From positions 1 to 64,000 of the IMG/VR virus record IMGVR_UViG_3300042465_003746: a stretch of DNA of 64,000 bases. One strand, given 5' to 3'. Of the stretch, positions 1 through 35,264 are shown piece after piece (position 1 is the stretch's first letter; each line of letters starts with the position of its first letter). The notes below the pieces were generated by a model, which was not told where the DNA came from, did no database searches, and saw only the letters and a program-made list of their open reading frames with translations. Source of the stretch: a virus. The position numbers and the translations under genes are program-made.

Positions 1-3000
1 TTCCTTAGTAAGCAAGTTAATAAATTTAAGAATCCAGAATTACTACAAGAATATTTAGAAGAAGTTGCAGGTGATAATTTAATAAGCAATTTGCCATTCT
101 TAAAGGATTTATCCAATGATGACTCTGATGTTAATGGTTTATTAGAAATTTCTATACTAGATGGTTTATCTAGAAAAGGTAAGAAGCGTTCAGTAAGTTA
201 CGGGGATATGTCAGATATTGAGATGACTGCTGTAGAATTAGCTATGTTTTACAACTCTGCTAATAAAAAAGGAGTTAGTCGTTTTAAATTACCTATTCCT
301 TCAAACTCAACTACTTTACCTTTTATAACTTCTCGTAGTTACGCTAAAGAGGAAGTAATAACTAGATTAGTAGATACCGCAAGAGCAGAATTCTCTAGAA
401 TTATTAAGTTAAAACATAGTGCAGGTACAGACTTAGCCCTTATTCCTAATTATATGGAAAGAGGTAGTAAGTATCAAATACTATCTTTCTTAAATAATAC
501 CCTAGATACTTCTAAAGGATTTGATGAGGCTTTGGTAACAGCAGAAGTTACTAAATTTTTAGAAGGAAAATTCTTAGCCGATCATATTGAAGCTTACAAA
601 ACTAAGGGTATTATCAAAAGCGTAAACCCTACTACAGGTGAGATAACATTTGCAGATAAATTAATTTCTGCTAAAGTAGCAAATAAAACAGAATTCTTTT
701 TGGACTATTTATATAATACTTATTATATGAATACGCAGTTGACTACTCTATTAGGAGGAGACCCTGCTTTCTATAAGAACACAGTAAACTACCAAAAAAG
801 ATATAAGCAAATAATGAGTCCTGGTACTTATACCGATACTACAAATATTGCTGATAACTACGGAGCCATTATTTTAAATGACGAAGAATTCCCTACTGCA
901 AAAGAAGTAGTAGATAATATTGTATCAATACTAGAAAGTTCTAATTTGCCTAAAGAAGAAATAGATGACTTAGTAACTATGTGGAAAACTAAGAAACACA
1001 ATCTTACTGACGGTGCTACTATCATTGGTGTTAAAAGAAAAAAACAACAGTTAGAAGGACTCCAAAGATGGACACCTGAGCATGAAGAAGCTTATCAAAG
1101 AGAGATAAAAGCACTTCCTGCGTTACCTAATGCATTAAATTTATTCTCTCCAGAAAAACCTTTTATCTTTGCTCAAAGAATTGTAGACGGCACAGTTGTA
1201 CCTTTCCAAGGTAAAAACTCTGAGGTAACTCTTACTAGAGCACTTGCCTATAAGACTGACTCAGATGGTAAAATCTTATTCCCTAAATTAGTAGCTCTTT
1301 ACGATGTACTAATGAATGGTATAGAAGACGAAGACGGAAACATTACTGAAGTAGATGCCGCTATGTTTGAATCTGCAGTAAAAGTAGGAGCAATAGGTAA
1401 TACTACTACCCCTAAAGGAAAAGTACGTTTTAGCGAGTTTTTAGAGCAGAAAGACGGTACTTATCAATTATCTCCAGGAGCACATGTATTATCTCTTAAA
1501 ACAGAGGAATGGAGATTACAGCAAGAAACTCCTGAGCACTTTATTGATGCAGAAGGTAACTTTGGTACTCAGCTAAGAAATCTTGCTATTGGGGATATGG
1601 ATCTTGAGGGCACTTATGATATCAATGGTACAAATATGAAAGGTTACGAAGTAGCTAAAATGTACCAAGAACTAATTGCAGAAGATTTAAAAGCTTCTTT
1701 TGAAGAGTTAAAAAGTGTATTTGAAAATGAAGATGGTACTATTAACTATGAACGATTAGCAGAAATGCTAAGAAAAGAAGTTATTAATAGAGATATGGGG
1801 CAAGAATATTTAGATGCCCTAGAACCTATTAAAAAAATTATAGAAGGTAAAGAAACTATTACTACTACTCTTCCTTTATATCATCCTCTTATTTCTTATA
1901 AGATGATGGCAGTACTAAATTCATTCTTTAAGAACCGAGTTACTAAACAAAAGATTGCAGGTGGAGCAGTAATTAACGCTTCTTCTTATGGTGTAGATAA
2001 AACCCTTAAATTTGAAGTAGATAAAAAGCTTGGTAAAATTACTTTAGAGGCAATGATGCCTTGGACTTCTAGAAAGTACTTCCCATTAGATGCTAACGGA
2101 GAAGTAGATATCGAAGCTATTAAATTATCAGCACCTGAATTACTTAGCATTATTGGCTATAGAATTCCTACGGAAGATAAATACTCTGCCTTTAATATTA
2201 GAATAGTAGGATTTACTCCTCCAAATATGGGAGGTATGATGATGCTACCTAAAGAAGTAACTACTTTGGCAGGTCTGGATTTTGATATTGATAAGATGTA
2301 CATGATGGCTAGATCTTTCTATGTAAATAAACAAGGAAAACCTAAGTACATTAAGTATATTGACAAAGTAGAGACTGAGGAACAAGCACAAGAACTTGCT
2401 AAAAATATCTTTAGTAATTTCCAAGACTATAAAAGATTTGTAAATAAAAATGTAGATGCCAAAAACATAAATAAAATGTTAGAGGGTCGTACAGAATTAT
2501 TAGATAAATTAGCTCTTGACCCTGTTATAATGGCAGATAAAGAGGATATCAGTAAATCTATTAAAGAATTAAAAGAAGAGAAAAAAGCTGCTATTAAACT
2601 TCACGGTCCAGATAGCAAATTTGTGCAATATATTCAAGATAGTTTAGACGAATTATACGTAGCAATTTCTGATGCTATTCCATTTAATGAAACAGAAACT
2701 CCTTTAACAGCAAAGCACGAAGAAGCTATTAATTTTATTGCTAAGAAATTACTATCAGAAGATTTTAATGCTGCAGAATTTAACTCTTCTAAGGCTAGAG
2801 ACAATAAGAAATTAGAAATACTTAAAGGTATTTTTGAAAATAAAAACACTGCTTTATCAATACTTAACCCTGGAAACTTTGATTCTCTTAAAGAAGGAGC
2901 TGCTAGAATTAGATTATTACAAGCAGGTAAAAAAGTAGCAGGGTTATCTAAGGCAGAATTAGTTAAAAATGCAGAAGAACTAGATAACGAAGAGGACTTT

Positions 3001-5850
3001 AATATTAACTATCCATCTACACAGTTAGAGTTATTTAGAAGAAACATGACAGGTAACCAATTGATTGGTATTTTTGCTAATCATAATACTCATCATGCTA
3101 AAGCTCAATATACAGATTTACAATTAAAAGAGCCGATTTTCTTTAATGAAGAACAGTTCTATTTATTAAATCAAACTACTAATAATAAAGGAGTTCGTAT
3201 TTCTAAATCTTTGGCATCTGATTTAGCAGCTGTAGTAGATACTGCAAGTGATCCATTAGCATCTTTCCTAAACATGAATACTTTTACTGCTAATACTCAA
3301 GCTTTGCTAGAGAGATTAGGAGTAGATAATAGAACAATTTTTGCTTTCTTAAATCAACCTATTATATTAGAATTAACTCAAACATATTTTAATGATAAAG
3401 GAGGTCTAGCTGATGCTAAACAATTTAGAGAGATACAAGCTAGTTGGAAGAAAAAACTTGAGGATAAATTAGAAAACGCAGATATCAAAGTAGAGGACTT
3501 ACTTAAAGATCTTAACTTTTCTACTGCAGAATTAGAATCTTTTATTTATCCTAGTGGAACATTAGAATATTACCAAACCCAGTATCGAGCAATTCATGCT
3601 TTCCAAAAATATTATAATATAGCACTAGAATTAGGAGAAGGTATTCAAGCAGCTAAAGCTGATACAACGGGAGTAGGACCTTCTATGGCCACTAACTACA
3701 CTACTATTAACAAACAAACTAAATTAAGTAGAAAAGTTAAAGCAGGTAGCAATACTATTATTGGATTAGAAGAAGTATATAAAACAGGTCCTCGTCAAAT
3801 TATGATGGCGGCTTTTAATAAATACGGATTAGAGGGCGCAGTAACTGTACTTAACAAAATATTCCCTTCAATAGGATCTATAAGTGAAGAGGGGGTATTA
3901 ACTTATTCTTCTCTAGGAGACCTTAAGAATTGGTTTAGTGATCAAAAAGGAGATTTCTTTAGCTTAACAGAGAAAGAAGCTCAAATGGTAGATATCAATT
4001 ATATTAACTTCATTGCAAGTGGATTCCCATTCTTTGAATATAGTCAAGGTAAAGATATTCTAACTAATTTACCTGACTCTTTAGTAAAGTTTAAGAAAAC
4101 TTTACCTAAGAATTCTTCATTTATTCCTTTATTAGATTCTCTATATGTTGTAGAAGGAGATAGTAATTCTTCTGTTAGGAGAATAGAATTCTATACTACA
4201 GGCAAAAAGCCTTTAGACATACAAAGAGCTAAAGAAGCTTGGGAAAGAATGTTAACTGATAAAGACCCAGCTGTTAAAGAAATGGCTCTTAAGTTAGTTC
4301 AATATACTTTTTTCTCTGCAGGTTACGGATTTGGTCCTTTTACTTTCTCTAATATGGTTCCTGTTAAATTTTGGACAGATAGTTACCAAATAGCTAACAA
4401 CATAGTAGATACTAAAGGAAGACCTTTTAATGATTTCCTTGCTGATGCATTAAGTTCAGATTTTTTAAAGAATGATGAAGCTAGAACTAATAGATTCAAG
4501 AAACAGTTTATGCAGAATCATGCTGATAAAGAACAATTTACTAAAACAGTTAAAGTAGATGTGAATAAAATATTTACTCCTAAAGCAGGAAGAACTGCGG
4601 AGCAAATGGATTACGACACTACAATGGCTGCTAGAAATGATAAAAGTGGTATTATAGTAACTAGAAAAGGAAACTTAATAGTTAACAAAAAGAAGAATCC
4701 TCAATTACTTCCTTTTGGAGAAAAAGCGGCTCCTATGAAATACATAAAAGTATTTAATAAAACAGGGGGAGGTCATATGTTGTTTGAATATAAAGAAACT
4801 GCATTTGACCAAAAAAACAATGCTTTATACGAAGGACAATCAAATATAGACACCGTTACTTACTTTCCTATTCCTGTTTTAGGTGCATCTAATTTTGTAT
4901 TAGAATTTAATTTCTACGATGATATTAATGAAACTTCTGTGCCTAAAAAGAAAAAGATTATAGCTAAAGGCCCTATAGCACAGATGGAAGCAGAGATGGA
5001 TAAATTAACAGATGACGCTATAATGATGGGGGTAGAACAAGATGCTATGCAAGATATAAGTTCTTTAAAACCTACTGTTGCTCCAACTACTCAATCATCT
5101 ACTAGTTTGCCTAGAGCAGAAACTAAGATTAATATTTATGCAAGTACAGGAGAAAATGCTGAGTTAAGTAATTTTGCTAATAGACCTTTTCTTACAACAG
5201 GTAATTTAAAGTTTAATACTGTAGAAGGAGCTTTTCAATATTGGAAAGTACTTTTTACAGACGGTGCTTATACAATAGAAGAAGCAGACGCTTTATTAGA
5301 AAAATTACAAAATGCAACAGGAGCAGAAGCTAAAAAAATAGGACGTACTATTAAAAATTTAAACACTGCTAAATGGGATGCATATTCTAGTAGAGGTATG
5401 AAAAAACTTTTATTAGAGTCTTTTGAACAAAATCCAGATGCACTTGCTAAATTACTTGCAACAGGTAATGCTACTCTTACACATACCCAAGATAAAGGCA
5501 AATGGGGTACTGAGTTTCCTAAACTACTTATGGAAGTAAGAGATGAACTTAAAACTACTCAACCTGCTGCTGCTAATAAACCATTAAGTCTAGCGCAGAT
5601 GGCAGATACAGGACTTACAGCAAAGCAAGAAGGAACTACTCCTGCAACACCAAAACCACTTACACTTTCCCAAATGGCTGATGTAAATGCAAAAGAACCT
5701 ATGGGATTATTTGAAAAATTAGAATCAAATGATTTTGAAGAATATACTAAAGCAGGTGGTACAGAGTTAAGTAAAAAAGATTTCTTATCTTTAAGCCGTC
5801 AAGAGCAAGCTAATGCAATATATCAAGCTAAAAATTGTAAAAACGGTTAA
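1..5850 (+). CDS. Giant virion DNA-dependent RNA polymerase (crAss-like, phi14:2 gp66-type) with C-terminal NADAR domain; 5' end lies outside the window
   Basis: Frame open from base 1; catalytic motif GLDFDIDK (DFDIDK at nt 2278-2295) preceded by YRIPTED; more than 1900 aa; NADAR motifs LSNF, TVEGAFQYWK, WG...LMEVR at ~5125-5553. Confidence 0.92.
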   Translation, partial: FLSKQVNKFKNPELLQEYLEEVAGDNLISNLPFLKDLSNDDSDVNGLLEISILDGLSRKGKKRSVSYGDMSDIEMTAVELAMFYNSANKKGVSRFKLPIPSNSTTLPFITSRSYAKEEVITRLVDTARAEFSRIIKLKHSAGTDLALIPNYMERGSKYQILSFLNNTLDTSKGFDEALVTAEVTKFLEGKFLADHIEAYKTKGIIKSVNPTTGEITFADKLISAKVANKTEFFLDYLYNTYYMNTQLTTLLGGDPAFYKNTVNYQKRYKQIMSPGTYTDTTNIADNYGAIILNDEEFPTAKEVVDNIVSILESSNLPKEEIDDLVTMWKTKKHNLTDGATIIGVKRKKQQLEGLQRWTPEHEEAYQREIKALPALPNALNLFSPEKPFIFAQRIVDGTVVPFQGKNSEVTLTRALAYKTDSDGKILFPKLVALYDVLMNGIEDEDGNITEVDAAMFESAVKVGAIGNTTTPKGKVRFSEFLEQKDGTYQLSPGAHVLSLKTEEWRLQQETPEHFIDAEGNFGTQLRNLAIGDMDLEGTYDINGTNMKGYEVAKMYQELIAEDLKASFEELKSVFENEDGTINYERLAEMLRKEVINRDMGQEYLDALEPIKKIIEGKETITTTLPLYHPLISYKMMAVLNSFFKNRVTKQKIAGGAVINASSYGVDKTLKFEVDKKLGKITLEAMMPWTSRKYFPLDANGEVDIEAIKLSAPELLSIIGYRIPTEDKYSAFNIRIVGFTPPNMGGMMMLPKEVTTLAGLDFDIDKMYMMARSFYVNKQGKPKYIKYIDKVETEEQAQELAKNIFSNFQDYKRFVNKNVDAKNINKMLEGRTELLDKLALDPVIMADKEDISKSIKELKEEKKAAIKLHGPDSKFVQYIQDSLDELYVAISDAIPFNETETPLTAKHEEAINFIAKKLLSEDFNAAEFNSSKARDNKKLEILKGIFENKNTALSILNPGNFDSLKEGAARIRLLQAGKKVAGLSKAELVKNAEELDNEEDFNINYPSTQLELFRRNMTGNQLIGIFANHNTHHAKAQYTDLQLKEPIFFNEEQFYLLNQTTNNKGVRISKSLASDLAAVVDTASDPLASFLNMNTFTANTQALLERLGVDNRTIFAFLNQPIILELTQTYFNDKGGLADAKQFREIQASWKKKLEDKLENADIKVEDLLKDLNFSTAELESFIYPSGTLEYYQTQYRAIHAFQKYYNIALELGEGIQAAKADTTGVGPSMATNYTTINKQTKLSRKVKAGSNTIIGLEEVYKTGPRQIMMAAFNKYGLEGAVTVLNKIFPSIGSISEEGVLTYSSLGDLKNWFSDQKGDFFSLTEKEAQMVDINYINFIASGFPFFEYSQGKDILTNLPDSLVKFKKTLPKNSSFIPLLDSLYVVEGDSNSSVRRIEFYTTGKKPLDIQRAKEAWERMLTDKDPAVKEMALKLVQYTFFSAGYGFGPFTFSNMVPVKFWTDSYQIANNIVDTKGRPFNDFLADALSSDFLKNDEARTNRFKKQFMQNHADKEQFTKTVKVDVNKIFTPKAGRTAEQMDYDTTMAARNDKSGIIVTRKGNLIVNKKKNPQLLPFGEKAAPMKYIKVFNKTGGGHMLFEYKETAFDQKNNALYEGQSNIDTVTYFPIPVLGASNFVLEFNFYDDINETSVPKKKKIIAKGPIAQMEAEMDKLTDDAIMMGVEQDAMQDISSLKPTVAPTTQSSTSLPRAETKINIYASTGENAELSNFANRPFLTTGNLKFNTVEGAFQYWKVLFTDGAYTIEEADALLEKLQNATGAEAKKIGRTIKNLNTAKWDAYSSRGMKKLLLESFEQNPDALAKLLATGNATLTHTQDKGKWGTEFPKLLMEVRDELKTTQPAAANKPLSLAQMADTGLTAKQEGTTPATPKPLTLSQMADVNAKEPMGLFEKLESNDFEEYTKAGGTELSKKDFLSLSRQEQANAIYQAKNCKNG

Positions 5851-33881: not shown

Positions 33882-34382
33882 TTAACCATTAAGGATAATC
33901 TTTTTAAGTAATTCCACATATCTTTTATCTTCTGCATAATTCTTAGTTAAATAATTAAAATATTGTTCTTTAGTTTTTAATTTAGAAAGATAAGTAGATT
34001 GGTACAATGCATAATCTATTACAGATTGTTTCCAGGATTTATATCTAGCATGTCCTAAATACTCTCCTATTGCTGTTGTAGCTCTTCTTCTAGCTTTCTT
34101 CATTCCAAATAGATTATTACCTATTGTAAAAGATTTTGATTTAAAGTGTCCAGTTTCTAAAACTGCTTGAGCAAATACTATTTCATAGTGTTTAATATTT
34201 AACTCTTGTAAAAATGCTAATAATTTAGCTTCACTAAATCGTTCTTCAATAGTAGGTAAGATAATAGTATTAGTCTTAGTTTCTACTATTTTTACAGGGT
34301 CTCTACTTATCGTAGCTGCCATAATAACTGTTGCAAATGCAATACCTCCAAATGCTATTAACAATCTCCTAAAAGGTTCCAT
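33882..34382 (-). CDS. Membrane-anchored GH73 glucosaminidase (peptidoglycan hydrolase)
   Basis: N-terminal TM; AQAVLETG, NNLFGMK, YAEDKRY. Confidence 0.85.
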   Translation of the reverse strand: MEPFRRLLIAFGGIAFATVIMAATISRDPVKIVETKTNTIILPTIEERFSEAKLLAFLQELNIKHYEIVFAQAVLETGHFKSKSFTIGNNLFGMKKARRRATTAIGEYLGHARYKSWKQSVIDYALYQSTYLSKLKTKEQYFNYLTKNYAEDKRYVELLKKIILNG

Positions 34383-34402
34383 AATGTATAATTTTAGTTA
34401 AT

Positions 34403-34502
34403 AAAAAAGATAGTGGGATACTCCTCTCCCACCGTGAGCTTACCTATCTTCTAACCATAAACGAATGAATGAAATACTCCTCTTTCACAACGAGCTTACC
34501 TA
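34403..34502 (-). ncRNA. Tandem covarying structured-RNA motif (2 x 34 nt); downstream copy runs into a U-tract
   Basis: TAGGTAAGCTC-N3-GTGRRA-GAGGAGTA-TYYCAY at 34469-34502 and 34413-34446, with compensatory stem changes. Confidence 0.65.
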
Positions 34503-34513
34503 ATGACGTATTT

Positions 34514-34535
34514 AAAAAATAACTAAAAGTTATTC
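34514..34535 (-). terminator. Weak AT-rich hairpin after tRNA-like RNA 1
   Basis: AATAACT-ttt-AGTTATT followed by a T run on the minus strand. Confidence 0.35.
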
Positions 34536-34536
34536 G

Positions 34537-34653
34537 TGGTTAGGGTGCGACTCGAACGCACGACCTATTGGCAAGACTAAATGTATATCCTCAGGCAATT
34601 ACCCCTTACTTTTTACCGCTTACCAATCGAGCCACCAACTGCTCTACCTAACC
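34537..34653 (-). ncRNA. tRNA-like RNA 1: intact acceptor, D and T arms with a 51-nt insert replacing the anticodon loop
   Basis: GGTTAGG/CCTAACC-A acceptor; GAGC-AGTTGGTG-GCTC D arm; ATTGG/CCAAT stem; AGGTC variable loop; GTGCG-TTCGAGT-CGCAC T arm. Confidence 0.8.
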
Positions 34654-34728
34654 AAACACTAGTCTTTCCTAGTAGTCAACATGGATATTTTGTGTACAAT
34701 TCAGGACTCTCATGCTCTTCCTTAGTTG

Positions 34729-34833
34729 TAGTCGGACAGGATTCGAACCTGCACAGTAGTTCTCCGAGGTTGTATTTATAATCAGAACTACTTTAATTAT
34801 CACCCTAAGCGTCTACCATTCCGCCACCTGACT
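34729..34833 (-). ncRNA. tRNA-like RNA 2: Leu-type D and T arms, degenerate anticodon arm, enlarged extra arm
   Basis: AGTCAGG..CCGACT-A acceptor (one bulge); GGCGGAATGGTAGACGC; AGTAGTTCT/AGAACTACT stem with 20-nt loop; GCAGG-TTCGAAT-CCTGT. Confidence 0.7.
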
Positions 34834-34837
34834 AAAA

Positions 34838-34930
34838 AAACACACTCTTAAGCATTCTACTCCCAGCTACGAGGAATTGTATCTTACTTAGCCCATCTCA
34901 CCGCTGTGTGGGTACTTAAGTTTATGTGTC
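34838..34930 (-). ncRNA. Candidate three-way-junction RNA
   Basis: Stems ACACA/TGTGT, CTTAAGTA/TGCTTAAG, CCCA/TGGG, TTCC/GGAG, followed by a T run. Confidence 0.5.
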
Positions 34931-35031
34931 TTGAGGTTAAGAACTCCTCAGTGTTGTAAGAATCTATAGCATATCTTCATTACTTATGTTCGATTTCCTT
35001 TCTCAAGGGAACAACAACTCTTTTAATAACA

Positions 35032-35204: not shown

Positions 35205-35264
35205 ATATTTTATACTGTGCCAAAACTATACATAAAGTTTACTTTTGGCTGGTTATAAATAGAT

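What the first reader, a model, noticed from the sequence alone, without database searches (positions are those of the whole stretch)
34403..34502. Tandem 34-nt RNA motif with compensatory base changes, ending in a terminator
Seen (minus strand): TAGGTAAGCTC-GTT-GTGAAA-GAGGAGTA-TTTCAT and TAGGTAAGCTC-ACG-GTGGGA-GAGGAGTA-TCCCAC, 56 nt apart. Two A-U pairs become G-C and a G-U becomes G-C, while the 11-nt 5' segment and the 8-nt loop stay invariant. CTC can pair with loop GAG (pseudoknot). The second copy is enclosed by AAGATA/TATCTT and a U-run about 20 nt before the glucosaminidase ATG. Inference: a tandem aptamer/attenuator, a protein-binding site, or a mimic of type III antitoxin pseudoknot repeats.
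Basis: partly seen in the sequence, partly recalled or inferred. Interest (0 to 1): 0.75.

Follow-up and report, generated by a model that had tools for sequence, protein, structure and literature searches.

The report
Conserved pseudoknot terminator hairpin in crAss-like phages
Two copies of a small RNA hairpin that can knot back onto itself sit just before a cell-wall-cutting gene of a lake-water crAss-like phage; related phages keep the same fold, so it is a real but narrowly spread RNA element, most likely a transcription stop signal that also controls the next gene.

Summary
Two 34-nt copies lie at 34469-34502 and 34413-34446 (minus strand), 56 nt apart, with 0 matches expected by chance. 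The window is a crAss-like phage contig from lake water.

I found 14 intact copies in 10 distinct sequence versions, on 13 viral contigs. Each has an invariant 5' box TAGGTAAG, then YTC, a 0-3 nt linker, a 5-8 bp stem and a loop starting GARG.
- **Stem:** it covaries (6 of 7 pairs change on both sides; 94.6% of cells paired; 0 of 500 shuffles as high).
- **Terminator:** 9 of 14 copies carry a U-run.
- **Downstream gene:** in 6 of 10 versions the endolysin ATG follows 20-27 nt after the U-run.

There was no Rfam match, no copy in 185,579 prokaryote genomes, and no ToxN-type gene.

Best reading (0.4): a structured terminator/attenuator module with a factor-recognition surface. A stable small RNA is the main rival. 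The antitoxin-mimic and aptamer readings are not supported. No expression data exist. The scan had noted this stretch only on this same genome.

The parts
34469..34502 (-). Motif copy 1: 5' box TAGGTAAG (34502-34495), CTC (34494-34492), linker GTT, stem arm GTGAAA (34488-34483), loop GAGGAGTA (34482-34475), stem arm TTTCAT (34474-34469). No U-run follows.
   Evidence: CM R1 55.8 bits; weak fold, -7.1 kcal/mol
34447..34468 (-). 22-nt spacer between the copies. It is not conserved in relatives.
   Evidence: alignment A5
34413..34446 (-). Motif copy 2: 5' box (34446-34439), CTC (34438-34436), linker ACG, stem arm GTGGGA (34432-34427), loop GAGGAGTA (34426-34419), stem arm TCCCAC (34418-34413). 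G34433 and T34412 add a seventh pair.
   Evidence: CM R1 68.7 bits; -11.4 kcal/mol
34403..34412 (-). Tail TATCTTTTTT. With copy 2's stem it makes an intrinsic-terminator-like site.
   Evidence: 7 pairs, 4 G-C, loop of 8, T-rich tail
34383..34402 (-). 20-nt AU-rich leader (ATTAACTAAAATTATACATT) between the U-run and the ATG. The ATTAACTAA part is shared with five relatives.
33882..34382 (-). Downstream gene: 166-aa protein with a hydrophobic N-terminus and a Glucosaminidase domain (endolysin PHROG).
   Evidence: Pfam PF01832 E 9.6e-16; phrog_21890 endolysin E 1.8e-18
34514..34534 (-). AT-rich hairpin AATAACT/AGTTATT plus T-run, between tRNA-like gene 2 and copy 1. Its 5' part resembles a box found upstream of copy 1 in L153, L159 and L288.
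   Evidence: sequence reading; not scored by the terminator scan
34537..34833 (-). Upstream context: two tRNA-like genes with long inserts (34729-34833 and about 34537-34656), at the 3' end of a ~960-nt ORF-free island.
   Evidence: Rfam tRNA 26.5 bits, below the gathering score of 29; ARAGORN calls them only with the intron option

Best explanation
The element is a self-contained RNA module, transcribed in the same direction as the flanking genes. It has four parts: an invariant single-stranded box UAGGUAAG; three bases YUC; a 5-8 bp hairpin; and a loop whose first three bases GAR pair back to YUC. Together these make a compact hairpin-type (H-type) pseudoknot.

The last or only copy usually carries a U-run and acts as the intrinsic terminator of the upstream unit, which is made of small early-type genes and/or tRNA-like RNAs. 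In most versions the endolysin start codon follows only 20-27 nt after the U-run, and the promoter scan saw no promoter there. The endolysin then probably depends on transcripts that read through this terminator, which would make it an attenuator.

The invariant box and the GARG loop are most simply explained as the recognition surface for a trans-acting factor, from phage or host, that sets termination or read-through or protects the RNA 3' end.

Shown: the conservation, the stem covariation, the YUC:GAR complementarity, the U-runs and the gene neighbourhood. Inferred: transcription itself, the termination activity, the dependence of the endolysin on read-through, and the existence of any binding factor.
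For: 1. Fourteen intact copies occur in 10 distinct sequence versions on 13 viral contigs.
2. The box TAGGTAAG, TC, the closing A and GA-G are invariant, while the flanks and spacers have diverged.
3. The stem covaries: 6 of 7 pairs change on both sides, 94.6% of cells pair against 47-64% when the partners are slid, and 0 of 500 shuffles reach the covariation score. RNAalifold independently predicts the same 7 pairs.
4. YTC matches GAR perfectly in 13 of 13 parsed copies and in L339, as 5 CTC:GAG and 9 TTC:GAA. By my parsimony reading this needs at least two separate double changes: copy-1 versus copy-2 lineages, and window copy 2 versus L151/L152, which share its stem and tail.
5. Four G-U/U-G cells in the stem would be A-C mismatches on the other strand.
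6. Nine of 14 copies are followed by a T-run, and window copy 2 is called terminator-like. Copy-2 and single copies fold at -9.9 to -16.7 kcal/mol.
7. In 6 of 10 versions (window, L153 group, L159, L287, L288, L339) the ATG of an endolysin 48-61% identical to the window's follows 20-27 nt after the U-run. L150 and L151 carry a 43-45% identical endolysin with no motif before it.
8. There is one locus per record: 1-2 copies in 9 of 10 records searched whole.
Against: - There are no RNA data of any kind.
- The copy in L232 has no U-run and sits 4 nt before a normal tRNA gene. The copy-1 versions also lack U-runs, so termination cannot be the module's only role.
- In L151 and L152 the single copy lies about 240 nt upstream of a different gene. 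In L187 it precedes a 63-aa ORF.
- The pseudoknot helix is only 3 bp with a single covarying pair, and the sequences are related, so that covariation rests on few events.
- No candidate binding protein was found. The neighbouring 89-aa ORF has no Pfam, PHROG or PDB lead, and its protein-atlas hits are only unnamed viral clusters at scores of 0.79-0.82.
- GGUAAG can also pair with the U-rich tail in many minimum-energy folds. That would be an alternative conformer, and the invariant box gives no covariation to test it.
Confidence: 0.4

Rival explanations
1. A stand-alone small stable RNA. The module would be cut or terminated out of a tRNA-like/ncRNA transcript. It would act in trans, with UAGGUAAGYUC as a seed or protein-binding platform, and the hairpin plus U-tail would simply be its 3' end.
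For: - In L232 the module lies between an insert-bearing tRNA-like gene and a normal tRNA gene (Rfam tRNA 47.1 and 66.3 bits) and has no U-run, so tRNA-end processing could release it.
- tRNA(-like) genes lie within about 150 nt upstream in 4 of 10 versions: window, L232, L287 and L339.
- L232's contig shows no tblastn match (E<=1e-3) to 10 window proteins in its first 12 kb, yet it shares both the motif and a tRNA-like scaffold with the window.
- The bare TAGGTAAG box survives in degenerate first copies in L187, L287 and L339.
- A conserved 5' single strand followed by a terminator hairpin is the usual layout of a base-pairing small RNA (established knowledge).
Against: - No conserved target was found. 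The one complementary 8-mer in the adjacent endolysin gene (34253-34260) is absent from 4 of 4 orthologues.
- No consistent promoter lies upstream.
- A conserved loop that pairs with the supposed seed is unusual for a seed region.
- There are no expression data.
Confidence: 0.25
2. An ordinary intrinsic terminator that was duplicated. On this reading the box and loop are conserved only by shared descent or for trivial reasons, for example because the box contains TAG and TAA stop codons in two frames ahead of the hairpin.
For: - Copy 2 scores as a generic terminator.
- The family is narrow: 10 of 41 contigs that carry the neighbouring 172-aa gene.
- In L153 the upstream ORF ends at the TAA inside the box (my reading).
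Against: - Eleven bases 5' of the stem and GARG in the loop are unchanged in 14 copies, while the stems changed at 6 of 7 pairs and the spacers are unalignable.
- The module is kept intact in L232, where it is not a terminator.
- YTC and GAR change together.
Confidence: 0.12
3. A DNA-level signal. It could be a promoter element, a regulator site repeated about 55-65 bp apart, or a single-strand DNA hairpin for priming or for a phage RNA polymerase.
For: - The bare box recurs about 53-66 nt apart in 7 of 10 versions.
- In L287 and L339, TTGACA followed by a 16-nt spacer precedes TATAGG, which overlaps the first box.
- The phi14:2 preprint reports a tripartite middle-promoter motif in some crAss-like phages, in 12 of 14 phages at least once upstream of a tRNA gene (passages read).
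Against: - There are only 1-2 copies per record, against 126 promoters in 14 genomes in that preprint.
- No common -35-like element sits at a fixed distance.
- Stem covariation, wobble pairs on one strand only and the loop-to-5' pairing are not needed by a duplex DNA site.
- The preprint's promoter logo and Supplementary file 1 could not be seen.
Confidence: 0.08
4. A small-molecule riboswitch. The pseudoknot would be a ligand pocket that controls the terminator, in the manner of the small H-type pseudoknot aptamers.
For: - It is a compact H-type pseudoknot overlapping a terminator and directly upstream of a gene.
- Some versions have tandem copies.
Against: - No Rfam family matches at E<=10 apart from chance-level small-RNA hits.
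- The linker (loop 1) is 0-3 nt and unconserved, and the most conserved part is a 5' overhang outside the knot.
- The downstream genes differ (endolysin, tRNA, two unrelated ORFs) and none is metabolic.
Confidence: 0.05
5. An anti-defence decoy RNA. It would mimic a host type III antitoxin repeat or a host CRISPR repeat and travel with tRNA-like decoys.
For: - A repeated pseudoknot-capable RNA followed by a terminator sits in what looks like an early phage region next to non-decoding tRNA-like genes.
- Phage-encoded pseudo-antitoxin and repeat-mimic RNAs are known (recalled, not read here).
Against: - The repeats are not contiguous and three versions are single-copy.
- No ToxN-family gene was found in the record (though the control genomes also gave nothing), and 8 flanking proteins gave no defence-family hit beyond one marginal E 0.0057 match.
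- A strict pattern scan of one genome for each of 185,579 prokaryote species gave 6 hits, none with the hairpin.
Confidence: 0.05

Closest known systems
Intrinsic (Rho-independent) terminators
   Same: A G+C-rich hairpin is followed directly by a U-run at the end of a transcription unit. This holds for 9 of 14 copies, and the consensus scan calls window copy 2 terminator-like.
   Different: An 11-nt segment 5' of the stem and the first four loop bases are invariant. Three 5' bases pair with the loop. Five copies, including L232's, have no U-run yet keep every other feature.
Lambda-type nut sites and rRNA-operon antitermination boxes (boxA plus boxB)
   Same: The layout is the same: a conserved single-stranded box, a short spacer, then a hairpin with a variable stem and a conserved purine-rich loop, lying in phage early-type transcripts or near tRNA genes (family features recalled).
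   Different: There is no sequence likeness that I could test and no N-like protein was identified. The element itself carries the U-run instead of preceding a separate terminator. Loop-to-5' pairing is not a nut feature.
Type III toxin-antitoxin RNA antitoxins (ToxI, CptI, TenpI) and phage pseudo-ToxI
   Same: Repeated units of about 35 nt that can form pseudoknots, followed by a terminator and then a gene.
   Different: The repeats are separated by unconserved spacers of about 20-28 nt (intact pairs) and are single in three versions. The downstream gene is a glucosaminidase. No ToxN-family gene and no host counterpart were found.
Small H-type pseudoknot riboswitches (preQ1-I and SAM-II type)
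   Same: Similar size (about 35-45 nt), H-type topology and overlap with an expression platform.
   Different: No covariance-model match. Loop 1 is unconserved. Conservation is concentrated in a 5' overhang. There is no consistent metabolic gene context.
Rfam RF04319 FopS small RNAs of Bacteroidetes
   Same: It was the best Rfam hit and spans the spacer, copy 2 and the U-run. FopS is likewise an AU-rich 5' part followed by a terminator hairpin.
   Different: The score is 19.2 bits against a gathering score of 56 (E 0.62 on 181 nt). The aligned 5' part is the spacer, which is not conserved among relatives.
Long non-coding early RNAs of crAss-like phage phi14:2
   Same: Both lie in ORF-free islands among small genes of a crAss-like phage. 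In phi14:2 these regions are highly transcribed from the earliest sampled time point (preprint 10.1101/2020.03.07.982082, passages read). The phi14:2 island also ends in a hairpin plus U-run just before the next gene.
   Different: The model finds nothing better than a 12.1-bit, generic terminator-like hit (E 0.24) in the first 12 kb of phi14:2.

Membership tests
Intrinsic terminator | Stable G+C-containing hairpin followed at once by a U-run | tested here: met
   Window copy 2 has 7 pairs (4 G-C) and an ATCTTTTTTA tail. Nine of 14 copies have a T-run. Copy 1 of the window and 4 other copies do not.
Intrinsic terminator | Transcripts end at the U-run | not testable with these tools
   No RNA run is listed for this sequence.
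Type III toxin-antitoxin RNA antitoxin | Head-to-tail array of near-identical repeats | tested here: not met
   Tandem Repeats Finder gives 0 rows. There are two copies at 72% identity, 56 nt apart, with an unconserved spacer. Three of 10 versions are single-copy.
Type III toxin-antitoxin RNA antitoxin | ToxN/AbiQ, CptN or TenpN-type endoribonuclease gene directly downstream | tested here: not met
   The downstream ORF is Pfam Glucosaminidase. PADLOC gives nothing for it. PF13958 has 0 matches in the 87-kb record, but the control genomes also gave none.
Phage mimic of a host antitoxin or CRISPR repeat | A matching repeat present in prokaryote genomes | tested here: inconclusive
   A strict pattern scan of one genome for each of 185,579 species gave 6 hits, none with the hairpin, and one inside an ORF. 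Divergent counterparts would be missed, and the host is unknown.
Known riboswitch classes (Rfam) | Match to a curated covariance model | tested here: not met
   There were 0 matches at gathering score in the window. At E<=10 on 181 nt only FopS, JA04 and a lncRNA fragment appeared.
Known riboswitch classes | Consistent association with genes of one pathway | tested here: not met
   Downstream genes are an endolysin (6 of 10 versions), a tRNA, a 63-aa ORF and a 172-aa ORF after about 200 nt.
Lambda-type nut site | Conserved single-stranded box 5' of a hairpin with conserved loop and variable stem | tested here: met
   Parsed copies. This is a likeness of architecture only.
Lambda-type nut site | Bound by an N-like protein and Nus factors, making RNA polymerase terminator-resistant | not testable with these tools
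FopS small RNA (RF04319) | Score at or above the Rfam gathering threshold | tested here: not met
   19.2 bits against 56.
Base-pairing small RNA | Conserved seed with a conserved complementary target | tested here: inconclusive
   The complement occurs in the endolysin coding sequence at 34253-34260 but in 0 of 4 orthologues. Host targets cannot be searched because the host is unknown.
H-type RNA pseudoknot | Two helices in a-b-a'-b' order, both supported by covariation | tested here: met
   Stem 2: 6 of 7 pairs change on both sides. Stem 1: pair 14-28 is U-A or C-G with no mismatch once two misaligned rows are parsed by hand. Stem 1 is only 3 bp with one covarying pair.

The most novel reading that the evidence does not exclude
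The module is a mobile, factor-controlled RNA switch that travels between unrelated lake phages together with insert-bearing tRNA-like genes. In crAss-like phages it would gate read-through from the early non-coding/tRNA-like unit into the endolysin gene, acting as an RNA-based lysis-timing device. Alternatively it would act with the tRNA-like RNAs as a decoy set against host RNA-targeting defences. In either case the invariant UAGGUAAG box and GARG loop would form the binding surface of an as yet unknown protein.
Probability: 0.15. Interest if true: 0.65.

Novelty: new variant of a known kind. Interest (0 to 1): 0.4.

Why it matters
crAss-like phages are abundant, yet how they control transcription is known for very few of them, and their ORF-free islands are unexplained. 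This is a small, well-defined RNA fold with comparative support. It sits where an early-type block meets a lysis-type gene, and it recurs in an otherwise unrelated phage contig inside a tRNA cluster. If it proves to be a regulated terminator, it would give a concrete handle on lysis or early-to-later timing in uncultured crAss-like phages. It would also be a compact pseudoknot-terminator design not catalogued in Rfam 15. If it is only a decorated terminator, it is a minor addition to the list of phage RNA motifs.

Tried and rejected
**Searches for further copies**
- The exact 26-nt core pattern gave 0 hits in viral contigs; the own record may be left out.
None has 6 of 6 stem pairs and the best 3 have 5 of 6, so I treated all as chance.
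My script found 126 pattern instances: 11 with 7 stem pairs, 2 with 5 and 113 with 3 or fewer.
- The TTC/GAAG pattern gave 14 stretches, of which 11 are true and 3 have no hairpin.
- The CTC/GAGG pattern gave 8 stretches, of which only L288 is true.
- Endolysin relatives L003-L019 (27-53% identical) have no motif within the fetched flanks.
- GenBank phages gave no match to the motif, only to AT-rich tails.
- The first 12 kb of phi14:2 gave nothing better than a 12.1-bit generic terminator-like hit (E 0.24).

**Expression and population data**
- No RNA holder is listed among the sequencing runs.
- In one search, a contig of X1 and one of X2 cover the whole motif with no differences, a contig of X4 reaches only its U-run and first stem base, and X3 has no depth there. 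So there is no population variation to use.

**Proteins**
- The 89-aa neighbour has no PDB-sequence hit and only protein-atlas hits at or below 0.82 to unnamed viral clusters.

**Ideas tested and dropped**
- A recalled Bacteroidetes -7 promoter box is not enriched: 71 and 49 found against 54 and 73 expected. None lies between the motif and the ATG.
- The 8-mer complementary to the box inside the endolysin gene is not conserved.
- The FopS likeness falls on the unconserved spacer.
- An 11-mer shared at 10 of 11 positions with tRNA-like 2, and a 9-bp inverted repeat enclosing both copies, are at about chance frequency by my estimate.

**Literature**
- Two full-text searches listed no paper describing this motif.
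- I read only passages of preprint 10.1101/2020.03.07.982082.
- Its Supplementary file 1 and its promoter logo were not visible. They may bear on the promoter rival.

Full report
**What is there.** On the minus strand, two 34-nt copies start at 34502 and 34446, 56 nt apart. Each reads TAGGTAAGCTC, then a 3-nt linker, a 6-nt stem arm, the loop GAGGAGTA and the complementary arm. A degenerate pattern with up to 3 mismatches finds only these two sites in the 64-kb window, and 100 shuffles gave none. The repeat finder reports one 46-nt family with 2 copies at 72% identity. Tandem Repeats Finder reports no head-to-tail array. Copy 2 is followed by TATCTTTTTT and scores as a terminator-like site. 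Its U-run ends 20 nt before the ATG of a 166-aa ORF (33882-34382) that carries a Glucosaminidase domain and an endolysin PHROG. Folding energy alone is unremarkable: z = -0.45 for 136 nt, and copy 1 folds at only -7.1 kcal/mol.

**Where the window comes from.** The window belongs to an 87,413-base IMG/VR viral record. One ORF matches the Crassvirus major capsid family at E 4.5e-86. DNA runs that hold the stretch are labelled lake or freshwater metagenomes. The motif closes a ~960-nt ORF-free island that also holds two tRNA-like genes with long inserts. Plain ARAGORN misses both, and the Rfam tRNA model gives 26.5 bits for one of them. The motif lies on the same strand as all neighbouring genes.

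**Relatives.** Exact-core scans found nothing useful. Relatives reached through the neighbouring 172-aa ORF carry recognisable homologues. Further pattern scans and a covariance model (R1) added more. In total I see 14 intact copies in 10 distinct sequence versions on 13 contigs:
- the window (2 copies);
- L151 and L152 (1 copy each);
- the L153 group of four contigs (2 copies);
- L159 (2 copies) and L288 (2 copies);
- L187, L287 and L339 (1 intact copy each, plus a degenerate first copy that keeps the TAGGTAAG box);
- L232 (1 copy).

Whole-record searches find one locus per record. Of 41 contigs that carry a homologue of the 172-aa ORF, 10 carry the motif within the fetched flanks. The closest relative by that protein (L150, 90% identical) does not.

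**Structure.** Across 13 aligned copies the 7-bp stem keeps pairing in 94.5% of cells, and 6 of 7 pairs change on both sides. For the stem plus pseudoknot together, 94.6% of cells pair against 47-64% when the 3' partners are slid by 1-3 columns, and 0 of 500 shuffles reach the observed covariation score. RNAalifold predicts the same stem on its own.

The three bases after the box are CTC when the loop starts GAG, and TTC when it starts GAA. This held in 13 of 13 parsed copies and in L339, giving 5 CTC:GAG and 9 TTC:GAA with no mixed case. In L153/L159 and L288 the two copies of one genome differ (CTC:GAG in the first, TTC:GAA in the second), so the pairing is within a copy.

Window copy 2 shares its stem and tail with L151/L152 but has CTC:GAG where they have TTC:GAA. 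By parsimony I therefore infer at least two separate double changes. This helix is only 3 bp with one covarying pair, so it is supported but not proven.

The topology is YUC, a 0-3 nt linker, the stem arm, GAR, a 5-6 nt loop remainder and the second stem arm. That is a standard H-type pseudoknot and is sterically plausible when the outermost stem pairs are open (inference). Four wobble cells in the stem would be A-C mismatches on the other strand, which favours an RNA read in the gene direction.

**What is and is not conserved.** Invariant in all copies are TAGGTAAG, the TC of YTC, the closing A of the stem, and G-A-(R)-G of the loop. Linkers, stems, the rest of the loop, the spacers between copies and the upstream flanks all vary. 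The most conserved part is thus a single-stranded 5' overhang outside the knot. That pattern fits recognition by a protein or another RNA better than a ligand pocket.

**Context.** Nine of 14 copies are followed by a T-run. The exceptions are the four intact first copies and L232. In 6 of 10 versions the ATG of an endolysin 48-61% identical to the window's follows 20-27 nt after the U-run, through a shared ATTAACTAA-type leader. L150 and L151 have a more distant endolysin (43-45% identical) with no motif before it, so the motif and this endolysin lineage behave as one cassette. The sigma-70-type scan found no minus-strand promoter in the window's 20-nt gap, so I infer that the endolysin depends on read-through.

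Elsewhere the contexts differ:
- The single copy in L151/L152 lies about 240 nt before the 172-aa gene.
- The L187 copy precedes a 63-aa ORF.
- The L232 copy lies between an insert-bearing tRNA-like gene and a normal tRNA gene, 4 nt before the latter and with no U-run.

L232's contig shows no tblastn match to 10 window proteins in its first 12 kb. Yet its tRNA-like gene shares the acceptor and T arm with the window's tRNA-like 1. tRNA(-like) genes also precede the motif in L287 and L339.

**Mechanism.** I commit to a structured terminator/attenuator module (confidence 0.4). The hairpin plus U-run ends the upstream unit and limits read-through into the endolysin. The invariant box and GARG loop, held together by the YUC:GAR helix, form a recognition surface for a trans factor that tunes termination or protects the 3' end.

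The main rival (0.25) is a stand-alone small RNA released from tRNA-like transcripts. L232 and the U-run-less first copies show that termination is not the whole story, which favours this rival. The absence of any conserved target counts against it.

The lesser rivals are:
- a plain terminator (0.12), which is hard to square with 14 invariant boxes beside freely changing stems;
- a DNA-level site (0.08), against which stand the low copy number and the strand-specific wobble pairs, although L287 and L339 show TTGACA-16-TATAGG overlapping the first box;
- a riboswitch (0.05);
- an anti-defence mimic (0.05).

**Comparison with known systems.** Rfam 15 gives no match at gathering score. The best sub-threshold hit is FopS at 19.2 bits against 56, and it falls on the unconserved spacer. 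The type III antitoxin reading fails two defining features, contiguous repeats and a ToxN-type gene. A strict scan of one genome for each of 185,579 prokaryote species found no hairpin-bearing counterpart. The layout resembles a lambda-type nut site (a box followed by a hairpin with a conserved loop), but only in architecture, and that comparison rests on recalled knowledge.

The phi14:2 preprint (passages read) reports highly transcribed non-coding islands among early genes. It also reports a tripartite middle promoter motif that I could not see. In the first 12 kb of phi14:2 the model finds nothing better than a 12.1-bit generic terminator-like hit.

**Verdict.** The element is a new, narrowly distributed RNA motif of a familiar general kind, with no expression data and no identified partner. 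Interest is moderate (0.4).

Noticed in passing
window 34729-34833 and 34537-34656 (minus): Two tRNA-like genes have intact acceptor, D and T arms but carry long inserts in or near the anticodon/variable region. Plain ARAGORN finds none; with the intron option it- and 44-nt 'introns' with non-canonical anticodon loops. Rfam tRNA gives 26.5 bits (below the 29 cut-off) for the first.
   Followed up: partly
window 34700-34950: In four lake-water DNA runs, the summed contig depth over tRNA-like 1 and the ~90-nt element upstream of it (34837-34927) reaches about 100-850, against roughly 0-15 in most flanking bins. Many contigs differ at about 9 positions. This suggests these RNA genes are shared by many other lake genomes.
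   Followed up: no
L232 1535-1651 and window 34729-34833: The insert-bearing tRNA-like genes of two otherwise unrelated contigs share the acceptor stem and T arm (93% over 29 nt) but have different inserts. In both contigs the pseudoknot motif lies downstream (43 nt away in L232, about 230 nt in the window).
   Followed up: partly
L232 1734-1808: A canonical tRNA (Rfam 66.3 bits) lies 4 nt after the motif. ARAGORN labels it anticodon CTA (an amber reader). By my reading the loop CTTCTAA fits anticodon TCT better. This is unresolved.
   Followed up: no
L287 about 1500-1535 (minus) and L339 about 865-900: TTGACA, a 16-nt spacer, then TATAGG, which overlaps the TAGGTAAG box of the degenerate first copy. 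This could be a sigma-70-type promoter reading into the motif.
   Followed up: no
window 35221-35228 (minus): This is the only match to the recalled Bacteroidetes -7 promoter consensus on the minus strand between 33000 and 38500. It lies near the start of the ORF-free island, so it could be the start of a ~0.8-kb non-coding transcript that ends at the motif.
   Followed up: no
window 34520-34528 and 34392-34400: A perfect 9-nt inverted repeat encloses both motif copies. A 5-bp core (TTAGT / ACTAA) is also present up- and downstream of the motif in L153, L159 and L288. By my estimate this is about chance frequency.
   Followed up: partly
L153 4862-5314: A 150-aa ORF with a signal-peptide-like start ends at the TAA inside the first copy's TAGGTAAG box. 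The box supplies stop codons in two reading frames (my reading).
   Followed up: no
L341 (phi14:2) 2905-4601: The 1.7-kb ORF-free region of phi14:2, reported as highly transcribed, ends in a hairpin plus U-run at 4541-4595 just before g006. The layout matches the window's island, but the motif is absent.
   Followed up: partly
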